Source of the DNA: Chrysomallon squamiferum
Taxonomy: Eukaryota; Animalia; Mollusca
Length of the DNA stretch: 64,000 nt
Direction of reading: 5' to 3'
NCBI GenBank assembly: GCA_012295275.1
Contig: CM022679.1
Span: 28,768,001-28,832,000, forward strand
Of this stretch, positions 669-34,455 are shown in pieces (position 1 is the stretch's first letter; every line of letters begins with the position of its first letter). The translations under genes and the position numbers were made by a program. The notes beneath the pieces were generated by a model. It was given only the letters and a program-made list of their open reading frames with translations. It was not told the origin of the DNA and did no database searches.

Positions 669-1358
669 CTTTTCGACTTGTCCATTTTGTTATTGAAGTC
701 TTTGTGAGGAATCCTAAAAACTGTGCCGAAGCCAAAGTCACTGTGTGTTATAATCATACTGGAGCGGCGCTAGGAGCTTCTGAGACGAGAAGCTTCGCTT
801 GTGAGAGACCAACAACAGGTCGATTTGTCAGAATCAGAAAGTGGAAGCAAGATTATGTTCTCACTTTGTGTGAAGTTCAGGTTTTCGGCCAGCGAAAAAT
901 TGGTAAACTTTATAATAAACGTAATGGTAAAAAATTATGTAAATAATGTTGTAGCTGTATCTTATTAAATGCGTTATAGATATGGTATTTTATTAATGTA
1001 ATTTAGATTGAATGGCGAGAATATAATATGTTTCTTTTCTTAGCCTCTGTAAAATATCGTACGTTGATAATAAACACTGAAATGTTTGTCGTTAAACTGA
1101 TATTTCTCGTCTGTTTTAGGTTGTGAAAATCCAGTTCATTTCAATCGACTTAGACAAACACGACTAAAATCAGATAACCCTCTGGTACTGACCACACCCC
1201 TGATGAACTGTGCTATTGAGTGTGTGAAAAATGGCGCCTGTCTGGCTTTCAACTTCAACACTGAAATTCAGCAGTGTGAACTCATCTTTCATCCTCAGTT
1301 TGGCGAGACAACTGAGAAGAATTCCGTGTGGGACTACTACGGATCAGATTTGTGTTAA
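669..1358 (+). CDS. F-type lectin + PAN/apple protein, copy A (5'-partial; exons 3-4 only)
   Basis: Exon 669-902 (cattgcag|..., FRLVHFVIEVF...CYNHTG...GRFVRIRK...LTLCEVQVFG, the FTLD C-terminal half) and exon 1120-1358 (GCENP...NCAIECVKNGACLAFNFNTEIQQCELIF...WDYYGSDLC*, PAN/apple). Phase-1 GT-AG intron. Bases 1-668 match intron 2 of copies E/F. Confidence 0.88.
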
Positions 1359-2639
1359 AACAGACGATCACCAAAAATTATTTGTGACGTACAAACTGTA
1401 ACGTGTAAACAAAAACACATAGATACTGTTAACTAATATCACTAGAAACTATATAATATGTGTCATTGTTTACGTACAAAGTTTTCGGTTTCATGTTCGA
1501 TCGAAGGCACCACTGTGATCTATATATATACATATATACTGTATAACCGAGTCAGATCTTGTCGAGTGAACAGTCAAGGGAATGTAAATAATTAAGTATA
1601 CAGTTACATTAACAAATGTCTAGAGACGTTTACAAAACAGATCTATTCCGTTGAGGCAGAAATATATATGCTGTTTTGCTTCACTTCATCTCTGTCGACA
1701 TGATTGTGAATGACTACTAAAGAATAAGTATGAGATAAAATAAACAGCTTGAATAATTGCAAAGAAAAAATCAGTAAAAGATATATATCAGTAAAAGATC
1801 CGAAAAAGGAGAACATTCTACCATTTGTGTGTGATTATTATTTAAAAACGAGTCGGATTGTGTCGACTGAAGTATCTAAAGACATTTACACTACAAACGT
1901 ATTTTTGTTTTGCTTCACTTCACCTCTGTCGATATAATTGTGAATGAATACTCGATAATAAGTATGAGAAATAAAAATTAAAAAAATGTTATGACTTTTT
2001 ATTGATACCGGGTTTTAAATAAGAAAGAAACCAATTTGAATAATTGCAAAGAAACAATCAATGTATCAGTAAGAGAACATGTCAATAAATGTAAATAAAC
2101 ACACACATATACACACACAAAACACATAAACATGATACAAATATGCATGTATCTCTCAATATATGTATGTATACATTTTATTTTGTTTTTGTATTTATTT
2201 TTTATATTTTATTTATTTTTTTATTATTATTTTTATTTTTTGACATTTCCTCATTCTGGTTAACTTCTTTTAGTGAAAAAAGATACACTGCTCGATCACC
2301 TGTCACTTGAGATATACGTGCATAAGAAAAGTACCAAAACAGGAAGCTGTCTTCATTTGACAACATAAATTACAAAACAGTGGACTTTTCGACAAAATTG
2401 TGCTCAGAAATAACATCAGAATCATCAAGCCTACCATTTCATTTACATTTACGTTGTCTAAATGCTAAATGATACTATTTATTTTTAGTCTACACGATTT
2501 CCAAGGGTTATCATACTCTTTTCCCGACACAAGTATGTCCAGAAATTAGTTCCAGTTTTTGAATCAACTGTACATTTGTTGAATGTTGAATTAAGATAAT
2601 CACAATTATTTGTAAGATTTCAGCATGTAAAGATATTGT

Positions 2640-3680
2640 CCTTTATAAACAAAACAGTGTACATTATACAAGTAAAATGTAATTTGTGTAGTCACTTTGT
2701 GAACAACATGCGATACTATTTACAACTGAAATGTAATTTGTACAGACCCTGCATAAACATCTCTGTGAACGTTTTACAATTAAAATGTAATTTGTACAGT
2801 GATTGTCTAAACAATACGATGTGTGTTATACGAGTAAAATGTAATTTGTACAGTGACTGTCTAAACAATACGATGTGTGTTCTACGAGTAAAATGTAATT
2901 TGTACAGTCACTGTCTAAACAATACGATGTGTGTTATACGAGTAACATGTAATTTGTACAGTCACTGTCTAAACAATACGATGTGTGTTATACGAGTAAA
3001 ATGTAATTTGTACAGTGACTGTCTAAACAATACGATGTGTGTTATACGAGTAAAATGTAATTTGTACAGTCACTGTCTAAACAATTATACGATGTGTGTT
3101 TTGTACGAGTAACATGTAATTTGTGTTATACGAGTAAGTGACTGTCTAAAACAATACGATGTGTGTTATACGAGTAAAATGTAATTTGTACAGTGACTGT
3201 CTAAACAATACGATGTGTGTTATACGAGTAAAATGTAATTTGTACAGTCACTGTCTAAACAATACGATGTGTGTTATAAACAATACGAGTAACATGTAAT
3301 TTGTACAGTGACTGTCTAAACAATACGATGTGTGTTATACATGTAATTTGTAAAATGTAATTTGTTATACAGTGACTGTCTAAAAACAATACGATGTGTA
3401 ATTTTATACGAAACAAAATGTAATTTGTACAGTCACTGTCTAAACAATACGATGTGTGTTATACGAGTAAAATGTAATTTGTACAGTGACTGTCTAAACA
3501 ATACGATGTGTGTTATACGAGTAAAATGTAATTTGTACAGTGACTGTCTAAACAATACGATGTGTGTTATACTGTCTAAACAATATGTGTGTTATACGAA
3601 AATGTAAAATGTAATTTGCTTCTAAACAATACGCAGAGAAACATGTAATTTGGGACTGTCTAAACAATACAACGCGGTGT
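2640..3680. repeat. 54-bp minisatellite (CGAGTAAAATGTAATTTGTACAGTGACTGTCTAAACAATACGATGTGTGTTATA)n
   Basis: Period 54 (e.g. 2831 to 2885); irregular after ~3080; explains the repetitive 18-aa ORFs at 2636 and 3362. Confidence 0.92.
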
Positions 3681-31520: not shown

Positions 31521-32093
31521 CAGTGTGTTTTTATCTTTAAAGAAACGACAACAACAAAAAACATTAAATACATAATCTATGCATACTGTTTAATTATTTA
31601 AAATACATTTTGTATGTATGTATGTATGTATGGTATGTACACACACACATTGTATCGTTGTAGAAGTTATCGTTGTAACTTATTATTGTTGTTTATTTAT
31701 GGTATTATTATTATTATTATTATTATTATTATTATTATTATTATTATTATTACAGCTGATGCTGTGGCTAATTCTTGTCATAGTTGCAGTTTCTGCGTCA
31801 GTCAGTTCACCACGACGTCGTTATTGCAGTCCATGCTATGTGTGTTGTTGTCAACAGAAACGTAGTCACAAAAGAAGCCTCACTGGTGATAACAAAAGAT
31901 GGTGTGTGCTGAAAACTGGTTTCCTGTGAGTCGATTATAATACAGGGTATTGTTAATACCAATGTTTTCAAAATAATTTATAACTGACTAACATGTACAA
32001 GGCATACTCGGTATGTTCAGCGTAAATTAGTTTATACGTTAAATACATATGTATTAACTGTACGTCACAAATACGTTTTGGTGATCGTCTGTT

Positions 32094-34455
32094 TTAACAC
32101 AAATCCGATCCGTAGTAGTCCCACATAGAATCCTTCTCAGCTGTATCGCCAAACTCGGGATGAAAGATGAGTTCACACTGCTCATCTACAGTGTTGTAGT
32201 TGAAAGCCACACACTTAATATCCTCGCTGCAAAACAGCAGACATTCCAAGAGATACGTGGTTACATCCTCAGAGTATACAGAAACCAGATGCGTTCCTCT
32301 AACACGAGGAAAATATGAGGGATTTTCACAACCTAAAATAAATTTTTAAAGTTTTCAGCTAATTAATAATCACATTTAAAATTAATTTTTAGATATTCCA
32401 AGTTGTAAGAATCTATAGGCGGTAGTTTCGGGATTTGTATTGTTGATGTTGTTTTGTATTTTGATTTTTTTTTTTTTTATTTCTTTCTTTCTTTCTTTTT
32501 TTTAATGGGTTTTATTTGTTTTCTTTTTTCTTTTCATTTCTTTTTTCTTTTGCTCTCTCGTCTTTGTTTTGGAGAAAAGCTGGGTATATAAATGAAGAAA
32601 TTAATATATACACGTATTACAGAATAGCTTTGACTCTATTGTCTCAATCCAAAAAATAGAAGAAAAAATATGGAGGGAAATTCCTTCTCTACTTCAAAAA
32701 ATCAATCTATGTATCGATCAATCAATCAATAAAATAAGTTAAAATGAAATAAATAAATAATCTTAATAAATGCCATTTAATCGAGTACAGAGAATTAATT
32801 TATTAAGATTATTTATTCATTTATTTATTTATTTATTTATTTATTTATTTATTTATTTATTTATTTATTTATTTATTTATTTCATTTTATTTTATTTTAT
32901 TTATTGATTGATTGGTAGATTGATTGATTTTTTTAATTTCCCTCCATATTTTTTTTTTCTGTTTTTTGGATTGAAACAGGAATATTTCAGGAAACAGGAA
33001 TATTTTAGACTCTTACTGTGTATGTCCTGTGCGCCGAATACTTCAACTTCACACAGTGAAAGACTATTGCCTGTGATCCACTTTCTGATTCGCACAAATC
33101 GACCTTTCGTCGGCGTGTCACAGAGGATGTTCCTGGTTTCAGACATTCCTAGTGACGCCCCTGTGTGGTTGTAACATACAGTAGGCGTGGCCTTCTCGCA
33201 CCATGCGGGGTTTATCAGAAATATTTCAATCACAAAGAACCGAAGATTTTCCCCTGTAATAATAATAATAATAACAATAATAATAATAATAATAATAATA
33301 ATAATAATAATAATAATAATAACAATAACAATAATAATAATAATAATAACAATAAAAATTATAACAATAATAATAATAGTAATAATAATATTTATTATTA
33401 TTATCTATTCTAAATATTATTGTTATTGTTGTTATTATAGTTGTTTTAGTTGTTTTTAATATTAGTGTTCTTGTTGTTACCACTATAACTACTACTACTA
33501 ATACTACTAATACTACAGCTACTACTAATATAAAGAAGAGAGAGAGAGAGAAAGAGAATAAACGATGATCATCCTGCAACTCAGCTTCAAGGGAATAAAG
33601 CGACGTCTGGCAAAGAAGACTCATTCTGTAATGCTAACTGCACTAACTAACTTAACCGAACAGTAAAGAAGAGTGGACAAGAGAAACGTACAAGAGTCGT
33701 CTCTGTTAGTCAGTGTAACTGACCGCACGAAATAATTAGACTTCAAGTCTACCATCCACCAAGGGTTTTCGTCATCTGGGACGGTTGTTGCACAGAAGTC
33801 TGTGTAGAAACTGGACCCAGTGTTACCATCAACTGCACTCCAAGCCGCGGATTGGTTTGTCAGATATCGTGAGCTGATGGTGGTAGGTTTATTGAGGGCT
33901 TCATTTTTGGGCGCACTATCTGAAATAGGTAACAGAATCAAATATCAGTGAATTATTTTTATCTCTTTTAATTTTTCTTTTATATTGTTGTCGTCGTCGT
34001 TGTTGTTGTTGTTGTTTTTATTTGGCTAGTTAAGCGCCAAGGTACGAGAACATGATATTTAATTATTATATATTTACTGTGGTACAGAGATTTTTTGTTG
34101 TTGTTTTCCACACTTTTAGCAAATAACAATAAAAACGAGTGAATGGAATTAGGCCTTAATTATATTTTGTTTACAAAACATTTATTAGTAAGCAGAAAAT
34201 ATATATATTAAACCGATTCTAGATTCTCTTCGAGGCATCCAGGTAAAAATGATTTTACATGGAGTTAAAATGTGGAATAAAAAAAAGTATTGTTGAGATA
34301 GCATGAAAAGCAAGTTTGACTGAAACATTAGAATTTACTACTGCAATAAAAACAAATATAATAATAATAATGTTTGAAAACAACGACAACAAAAAATTAT
34401 ACTTACATCCGGAAGGAATGATTATAGCGATTATAAAGATGACGTGTTCATACAT
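32094..34455 (-). CDS. Secreted F-type lectin + PAN/apple protein, copy H (250 aa, intact, most divergent)
   Basis: Exons 34455-34407 (MYEHVIFIIAIIIPSG), 33919-33692, 33253-33017, 32332-32094; 753 nt in frame. Motifs NEALNKP, AVDGN, PWWMVDL, GRFVRIRK, LSLCEVEV, then PAN ending DYYGSDLC*. Confidence 0.9.

What the first reader, a model, noticed from the sequence alone, without database searches (positions are those of the whole stretch)
669..34455. Diversifying 8-copy cluster of secreted F-lectin + PAN/apple proteins
Seen: eight paralogues share one 4-exon plan (signal 49-55 nt / FTLD-N 228 / FTLD-C ~234 / PAN 239, all phase 1) at every stage of birth and death: near-identical D/E/F/A, old divergent B/G/H, and decayed C. 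Known: F-type lectin domains bind fucosylated glycans in immunity and gamete recognition, and PAN/apple domains mediate protein or glycan binding. Inference: a lineage-specific repertoire of small bivalent recognition proteins (microbe/symbiont sorting, mucus or gamete recognition), probably uncharacterised at this locus. The cluster continues beyond the left edge. FTLD+PAN fusions as such may already be catalogued, so the novelty would be the diversified array.
Basis: partly seen in the sequence, partly recalled or inferred. Interest (0 to 1): 0.85.

Follow-up and report, generated by a model that had tools for sequence, protein, structure and literature searches.

The report
Snail fucolectin–PAN tandem gene array
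Eight neighbouring copies of a small two-domain lectin gene (F-type lectin plus PAN/apple), in what is likely a marine snail, differ mostly in their predicted sugar-binding loops and likely encode secreted recognition proteins; the same gene design is already in databases for related snails, so this is largely an ordinary expanding immune-type gene family.

Summary
The array is real: eight paralogues (A-F on +, G and H on -) with signal-like exon, split F-type lectin domain (FTLD) and PAN exon. D, E, F and H are intact 250-251 aa frames, A is cut by the window edge and C is a decayed pseudogene. Independent DNA contigs restore G's frame in 4 of 4 runs and never show B's break, so both are probably assembly errors.

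The design is not new. FTLD+PAN proteins with the same C-terminal tail occur in Gigantopelta aegis (8 hits on one chromosome-sized sequence) and Haliotis, and in mollusc and cnidarian Atlas clusters. Fucolectin expansion in vent snails is published.

The window copies form their own clade (97/97), keep cysteines and core under purifying selection, and vary in the sugar-binding loops. Four of six keep the His/Arg/Arg triad; none meets the strict fucose motif. D is a mosaic (old exon 2 on a homogenised exon 3-4 half), and H shares a converted 3' end with A/D/E/F. No positive selection was detected and expression is untested. Verdict: new member of a known kind.

The parts
669..1358 (+). Copy A, exons 3 (669-902) and 4 (1120-1358); 5' half off the left edge
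5393..7157 (+). Copy B: 5393-5447, 5733-5960, 6443-6671, 6919-7157. Exon 3 is out of frame near 6500 in the window (probably an assembly error). Lacks the His52 and Arg79 equivalents
9619..12293 (+). Copy C, pseudogene: exon-1 remnant from 9619 without donor, broken exon-2 remnant ~10713-10897, short exon-3 remnant ~11497-11559, open PAN exon 12055-12293
12239..12496 (+). Triplicated 3' end of C exon 4 (86-nt unit, 3.0 copies, 97%)
13718..15666 (+). Copy D, 251 aa: 13718-13772, 14144-14371, 14977-15210, 15428-15666. Mosaic of a divergent 5' half and an A/E/F-type 3' half; H/R/R triad kept
17012..19109 (+). Copy E, 251 aa: 17012-17066, 17586-17813, 18423-18656, 18871-19109; triad kept
20457..22534 (+). 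Copy F, 251 aa: 20457-20511, 21010-21237, 21845-22078, 22296-22534; triad kept
14962..22546 (+). Young direct duplication with a unit of about 3.4 kb (14962-19121 vs 18408-22546, 96.4%), starting just upstream of exon 3
26902..29736 (-). Copy G: 29736-29682, 28904-28677, 27672-27440, 27140-26902. The one-base gap near 27525 in the window is absent from 4 of 4 runs; triad kept
32094..34455 (-). Copy H, 250 aa: 34455-34407, 33919-33692, 33253-33017, 32332-32094. Lacks the His52 and Arg86 equivalents; 3' half of exon 4 and 3' flank 85-94% identical to A/D/E/F

Best explanation
This is a tandem array of F-type lectin + PAN/apple genes, expanding by duplication, partial gene conversion and loss in what is likely a vetigastropod/neomphaline snail, and it likely encodes secreted surface- or haemolymph-recognition lectins whose glycan preference is predicted to differ between copies.

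Shown: gene structure, both domains, 11 conserved mature cysteines, purifying selection on the core, divergence concentrated in the five loops around the site, mosaic copies and one dead copy.

Inferred mechanism: a cleaved signal peptide sends a ~230-aa protein out of the cell. A Ca-stabilised FTL jelly-roll binds a terminal sugar through the His/Arg/Arg triad in D, E, F and G (fucose-type, with an altered CDR4), while B and H bind another ligand or none. The PAN domain and a spare cysteine would give a second contact or oligomerisation, so that microbes or mucus glycans are cross-linked. Exon 2 carries four of the five loops, so crossovers near the intron 2/exon 3 boundary put different binding faces on a shared exon 3-4 chassis (seen once, in D).
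For: Domains: Pfam. The exon-2 profile's best PDB hits are the F-lectins 3cqo (1e-29) and 1k12 (2e-14). A G. aegis relative's model matches F-lectins first. The model of D's own exon 4 (pLDDT 85) matches HGF/plasminogen PAN domains at TM 0.66-0.77. Selection: dN/dS between old lineages is 0.12-0.54 where dS is finite. Loop identity among B, D, E, G and H is 23-35%, against 64-88% in the FTLD core. Mosaicism: D vs E differ at 45 of 228 nt in exon 2 but 13 of 473 in exons 3-4 (p=2e-13); H changes position between trees of the two halves of exon 4. Relatives: G. aegis and Haliotis FTLD+PAN proteins. Precedent for immune roles of mollusc FTLs: PMC5712786 (passages).
Against: There is no expression or binding data for any copy. 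None of the six complete copies meets the strict HX24RXDX4[R/K] motif. Loop divergence shows no excess of amino-acid change over silent change (D-E loops pN 0.36 vs pS 0.33), so relaxation explains it as well as adaptation. Signal peptides were judged by hydropathy only, and those of G and H have atypical ends. The full-length fold was modelled on a G. aegis relative, not a window protein. Fucolectins of related snails peak in several tissues, so an immune role is not singled out.
Confidence: 0.65

Rival explanations
1. The proteins are extracellular-matrix or biomineral (shell, scale, mucus) components secreted by mantle or foot, using FTLD and PAN as adhesive modules rather than as immune receptors.
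For: In a related vent snail, 12 of 19 listed fucolectin rows peak in mantle and 4 in foot (supplement of PMC7895826). FTLs are reported in Mya truncata shell matrix (PMC5712786 passage). The odd cysteine count would suit cross-linking.
Against: Those rows cannot be tied to the window genes or to the FTLD+PAN design, and their CPM values are mostly low. Fast loop divergence on a conserved core fits recognition better than a structural role. There are no low-complexity or acidic tracts in the models.
Confidence: 0.17
2. Gamete-recognition proteins in the manner of oyster bindins, diversified by sperm-egg coevolution.
For: Bindins are FTLD proteins diversified by recombination, with some isoforms lacking the basic triad (PMC5712786 passage), as B and H do.
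Against: There are no tandem FTLD repeats within a gene and no sign of dN/dS above 1. The design occurs at several loci in G. aegis and in abalones.
Confidence: 0.06
3. The young copies (A, E, F and the 3' half of D) are neutral copy-number turnover or partly haplotypes assembled in tandem, so the functional repertoire is only about four genes.
For: E and F are 96% identical over 4.1 kb, within reach of allelic divergence. The assembly has indel errors (and a split DCUN1D3-like gene). dN/dS among the young copies is indistinguishable from 1 on few changes.
Against: There are four distinct versions with three incompatible 2:2 site patterns (4, 4 and 1 sites), more than one diploid locus gives. 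D has an unrelated intron 2 and a different exon 2, and F has a different 3' flank from A, D and E.
Confidence: 0.12

Closest known systems
Gigantopelta aegis 'fucolectin-like' FTLD+PAN_1 proteins (e.g. XP_041361409.1, XP_041361972.1, XP_041379164.1)
   Same: Same order (signal, FTLD, PAN), about 250 aa, same cysteine set and W.YYG.D.C tail; best hits 39-48% identical to window copies. Eight hits lie on one 47.5-Mb sequence, six forming their own clade with mixed triad residues.
   Different: The window copies form a separate clade (97/97), so the two expansions are independent. Adjacency and exon structure in G. aegis were not checked.
Haliotis 'fucolectin-like' FTLD+PAN proteins (e.g. XP_046558171.1, XP_067657340.1)
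   Same: Same two-domain design.
   Different: More distant. One abalone clade keeps the vicinal Cys-Cys of CDR4 and lacks both the loop cysteine and the terminal cysteine.
Anguilla agglutinin AAA (1k12) and Morone MsaFBP32 (3cqo)
   Same: FTL fold, hhDGx motif, two core disulfide pairs; His/Arg/Arg triad in D, E, F and G.
   Different: The window proteins lack the CDR4 Cys-Cys pair and (except H) the Asp after the first Arg, have a CDR4 one residue shorter, and carry a PAN domain instead of a second FTLD.
Crassostrea gigas bindins
   Same: Mollusc FTLDs diversified by recombination, some lacking the triad (PMC5712786, passages).
   Different: Bindin is one gene with 1-5 spliced FTLD repeats under positive selection. 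Here there are separate genes with one FTLD split over two exons plus PAN, and no dN/dS above 1.
Apicomplexan apple-domain lectins (Toxoplasma MIC4 4a5v, Sarcocystis SML-2 2yip)
   Same: PAN/apple fold; weak hits. The SML-2 entry is a galactose complex, so an apple domain can bind sugar.
   Different: Only 13-16% identity to SML-2, and weaker than the HGF/plasminogen hits. Conservation of sugar-binding residues was not tested.

Membership tests
F-type lectin (FTLD) | F-type jelly-roll fold / homology to AAA and MsaFBP32 | tested here: met
   The window exon-2 profile hits 3cqo (1.3e-29) and 1k12 (2.3e-14) first; H exon 3 weakly hits the same two. The model of relative P0026 matches F-lectins at TM 0.76-0.80 by target.
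F-type lectin (FTLD) | Cation motif h2DGx | tested here: met
   AVDGN in B, E, F, G and H; AVDGE in D (motif from PMC5712786).
F-type lectin (FTLD) | Two core disulfide pairs (AAA C50-C146, C108-C124) | tested here: met
   Equivalent cysteines in 6 of 6 complete copies; pairing inferred from alignment.
F-type lectin (FTLD) | Basic triad His52/Arg79/Arg86 | tested here: inconclusive
   Kept in 4 of 6 complete copies (D, E, F, G). B has Ile/Leu/Arg and H has Thr/Arg/Asn.
Canonical fucose-binding FTL (fucolectin in the strict sense) | Strict motif HX24RXDX4[R/K] | tested here: not met
   0 of 6: the triad-bearing copies lack the Asp and have a loop one residue shorter; H has the Asp but not the His. 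The review keeps deviating domains within the FTL family, so they are filed as FTLD proteins, not as proven fucose binders.
Canonical fucose-binding FTL (fucolectin in the strict sense) | Binds L-fucose glycans | not testable with these tools
   Needs a glycan array.
PAN/apple domain | PF00024 match and 4-6 cysteine core | tested here: met
   8 of 8 exon-4 copies score 28.6-33.5 bits against a cut-off of 21.4; six invariant cysteines.
PAN/apple domain | Fold like the HGF/plasminogen N-domain | tested here: met
   D exon-4 model, pLDDT 85; top hits are HGF NK1 at TM 0.66-0.74.
Secreted protein | Cleavable signal peptide, no transmembrane segment | tested here: inconclusive
   Hydrophobic core in exon 1 (max 8-mer hydropathy 2.5-4.0). 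No SignalP was available; no second hydrophobic stretch seen by eye in the models.
Bindin-type gamete lectin | Tandem FTLD repeats in one gene and positive selection | tested here: not met
   One FTLD per gene; no significant dN above dS.

The most novel reading that the evidence does not exclude
The array works as a germline cassette system. Exon 2, which carries four of the five sugar-binding loops, is the variable module; exons 3-4 (lectin floor plus PAN) are a constant chassis kept uniform by conversion; and unequal crossover at the intron 2/exon 3 boundary mixes them. A junction disulfide between FTLD loop and PAN tail would leave one cysteine free to build covalent homo- or heterodimers, giving a combinatorial set of agglutinins that sorts bacteria, possibly symbionts, in a vent-snail lineage.
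Probability: 0.12. Interest if true: 0.65.

Novelty: new member of a known kind. Interest (0 to 1): 0.3.

Why it matters
As it stands this is a tidy example of a common mollusc pattern: a secreted lectin family that turns over quickly in tandem. Its value is practical. The FTLD+PAN design is in databases under automatic names, but I found no paper that characterises it (searches; subscription papers such as Bishnoi 2015 and Gorbushin 2015 could not be read). The array supplies a natural series (triad intact in D/E/F/G, broken in B/H; D and E with nearly the same chassis but different loops) with which to ask what the loops and the PAN domain bind. If loop-exon swapping and covalent dimers proved real and tied to symbiont choice, it would bear on how chemosymbiotic snails recognise their bacteria.

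Tried and rejected
No whole genome is held, so copy number outside the window and the left end of the array were not read directly.

No RNA holder was listed among the 11 runs; this says nothing on expression.

Both read-laying runs went to the G and B breaks, so A/D/E/F were not tested against reads. Summed contig depth over B exons is several times that over G exon 3, but the tool states it is no copy number, so I did not use it.

The exon-3 homolog search found nothing. The exon-2 search returned only long multi-FTLD or bacterial proteins (crowded, weak).

Rejected: 'B and G are pseudogenes' for G, and probably for B; positive selection on loops (not supported); bindin-type organisation.

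The tool for predicting complexes was not available, so oligomerisation is untested.

The cysteine covariation (loop Cys and terminal Cys both absent in P0024, the P0153 clade and P0174) has counter-examples (P0172, P0173, P0175), so it stays a lead.

C was left out of the protein tree because it is decayed, and was not checked against reads.

Earlier scan findings: none returned.
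Full report
Observation. The window is AT-rich animal DNA (30% GC). A translated self-search finds eight PAN exons, eight exon-3 copies or remnants and seven exon-2 copies or remnants, all between 669 and 34455. A-F lie on the + strand, and G and H face them on the - strand. Splicing by coordinates gives open frames for D, E, F (251 aa) and H (250 aa), with GT/AG phase-1 introns. 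A has exons 3-4 only, and the first 105 bases of the window match E intron 2 at 99%. C has lost its exon-1 donor, has a broken exon 2 and only about 60 nt recognisable of exon 3, but keeps an open PAN exon. To the right lie a multi-exon EF-hand gene, a Cullin-binding (DCUN1D3-like, name recalled) gene and a PP2C-fold (TAB1-like, name recalled) gene.

In the window, B exon 3 is 229 nt and G exon 3 is 233 nt, both out of frame. Laying contigs of four public DNA runs (at most four samples, three studies; one may be the assembly's own source) on G showed one extra base at the break in 4 of 4 runs, at the full depth of the covering contig. G is therefore intact. On B, every contig covering position 6501 in three runs carried either one base fewer or two more, both in frame; the fourth run had no cover there. 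B is probably intact, though I cannot prove which contig belongs to B. Run X1 holds at least three versions of B exon 3, and one version is absent from the window even with two mismatches, so B-like copies exist elsewhere. The neighbouring Cullin-binding gene is also split into two frames near 53040, consistent with residual indel errors in the assembly.

Domains. PAN_1 passes Pfam's cut-off in 8 of 8 exon-4 copies. F5_F8_type_C_2 passes in 5 of 6 exon-2 copies. Exon 3 alone matched nothing in 7 of 7 pieces given. The exon-2 profile's best solved relatives are MsaFBP32 and eel agglutinin AAA, and H exon 3 weakly hits the same two. A model of D exon 4 (pLDDT 85) matches HGF and plasminogen PAN domains. 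The full-length design was modelled on a G. aegis relative (pLDDT 77, pTM 0.74) and matches F-lectins first.

Binding site. Motifs are taken from PMC5712786 (passages and section 16 read). All six complete copies keep hhDG and the four core cysteines. The His/Arg/Arg triad is present in D, E, F and G; B has Ile/Leu/Arg and H has Thr/Arg/Asn. None has the strict R-x-D-x4-R loop or the vicinal Cys-Cys. The five loops (boundaries set by me from the AAA alignment) are 23-35% identical among B, D, E, G and H, against 64-88% for the FTLD core and 52-75% for PAN. All six have 11 mature cysteines, an odd number. The loop cysteine and the terminal cysteine are missing together in three relative lineages but not in three other abalone proteins. 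A junction disulfide with one spare cysteine is therefore a lead only.

Evolution. Between old lineages dN/dS is 0.12-0.54 where dS is finite. In exon 2, D vs E loops show pN 0.36 and pS 0.33, and the core 0.03 and 0.12: the core is constrained, and the loops are not shown to be positively selected. D is a mosaic. It differs from E at 45 of 228 nt in exon 2 but 13 of 473 in exons 3-4 (p=2e-13), and its intron 2 falls to 44-51% identity until just before exon 3, where the 3.4-kb D-E-F repeat unit begins. H is about 51% identical to A/D/E/F in the first half of exon 4 but 85-89% in the second half, and 94% to A/D/E in the first 33 flank positions. Silent differences drop from 9 of 15 to 3 of 28 codons (A-H, p=0.001 uncorrected), and H moves between the two half-exon trees. 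G shows a weaker drop of the same kind. This is ordinary gene conversion between the inverted arms. A, D, E and F are four distinct versions with incompatible shared sites (4, 4 and 1), so they cannot all be one mis-assembled gene.

Relatives. A PAN-exon profile against 1.84 billion representatives gave 201 hits. Of the best 150, 17 carry the family's W.YYG.D.C tail. Of the ten looked up first, seven are from Gigantopelta aegis, two from Haliotis and one is unnamed. A full-length profile gave 26 hits, 13 with both F5/8 and PAN_1 (8 G. aegis, 5 Haliotis). Eight G. aegis hits lie on a sequence of the same 47.5-Mb length (adjacency not checked). In a 29-row tree the seven window proteins (C left out) are one clade (97/97) among G. 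aegis rows, and six of the G. aegis 47.5-Mb proteins form their own clade (99/97); the root is not fixed. Best identities to G. aegis are 39-48%, so the window is likely a related but different gastropod. The ESM Atlas lists a 211-member 'fucolectin-like' cluster (63% PAN_1, mostly Mollusca; possibly the query's own) and a 68-member F5/8+PAN cluster (mostly Cnidaria).

Literature. PMC7895826 (section 8, passages and supplement rows read) reports fucolectin expansion in G. aegis. Its orthogroup counts are 96 for G. aegis, 49 for Chrysomallon squamiferum, 52 for Lottia and 87 for Crassostrea gigas. Among listed fucolectin rows, 12 of 19 in C. squamiferum peak in mantle (4 foot, 2 gill, 1 oesophageal gland), six of them on one scaffold. 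In G. aegis, 10 of 26 peak in the symbiont-bearing gland, 10 in foot, 5 in mantle and 1 in gill. These rows cannot be tied to the window genes or to the PAN design. Keyword passages of PMC12221842, PMC13712769, PMC8878817 and PMC9334734 did not describe FTLD+PAN. Eight searches (listings seen) found no paper on this design. Bishnoi 2015 and Gorbushin 2015, the most likely places, were not held and may list it.

Mechanism and verdict. Most likely (0.65) these are secreted recognition lectins with copy-specific sugar loops on a conserved chassis, maintained by birth-and-death evolution with conversion. Secretion, ligand, PAN role and tissue are all inferred. Matrix or biomineral function (0.17), neutral or partly artefactual young copies (0.12) and gamete recognition (0.06) are the rivals. 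But both the domain fusion and its tandem diversification have counterparts in related snails, so it is a new member of a known kind, interest 0.3.

Noticed in passing
window 52439-53342 (-): Single-exon Cullin-binding (DCUN1D3-like) gene split into two reading frames near 53040; likely another one-base assembly error.
   Followed up: partly
window 36650-45770 (-): Multi-exon gene with repeated EF-hand pairs (Pfam EF-hand_7 hits in 3 of 6 exon pieces tested).
   Followed up: partly
window 59210-63900 (-): PP2C-fold gene, TAB1-like by recall, running toward the right edge; a long tandem repeat (60861-61648) lies in an intron.
   Followed up: partly
window 10368-10623 (+): Second remnant of the B/C-type upstream region (71-74% to B upstream) between C's exon-1 and exon-2 remnants; possibly a trace of a ninth copy.
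   Followed up: partly
window 2645-3670 and 24312-25668: Related 54-58-nt satellite arrays downstream of A and of F, the second with an inverted part (25263-25668). A's 3' flank also resembles 23590-24300, suggesting an older, larger duplication.
   Followed up: partly
window 12055-12496 (+): C's PAN exon is still open with all six cysteines although the rest of C is decayed, and its last 86 nt are triplicated.
   Followed up: partly
P0012 (G. aegis XP_041362947.1): The annotated protein joins a HECT-like fragment, a PAN domain and a full FTLD+PAN unit; probably a fused gene model across a tandem pair next to LOC121378728.
   Followed up: no
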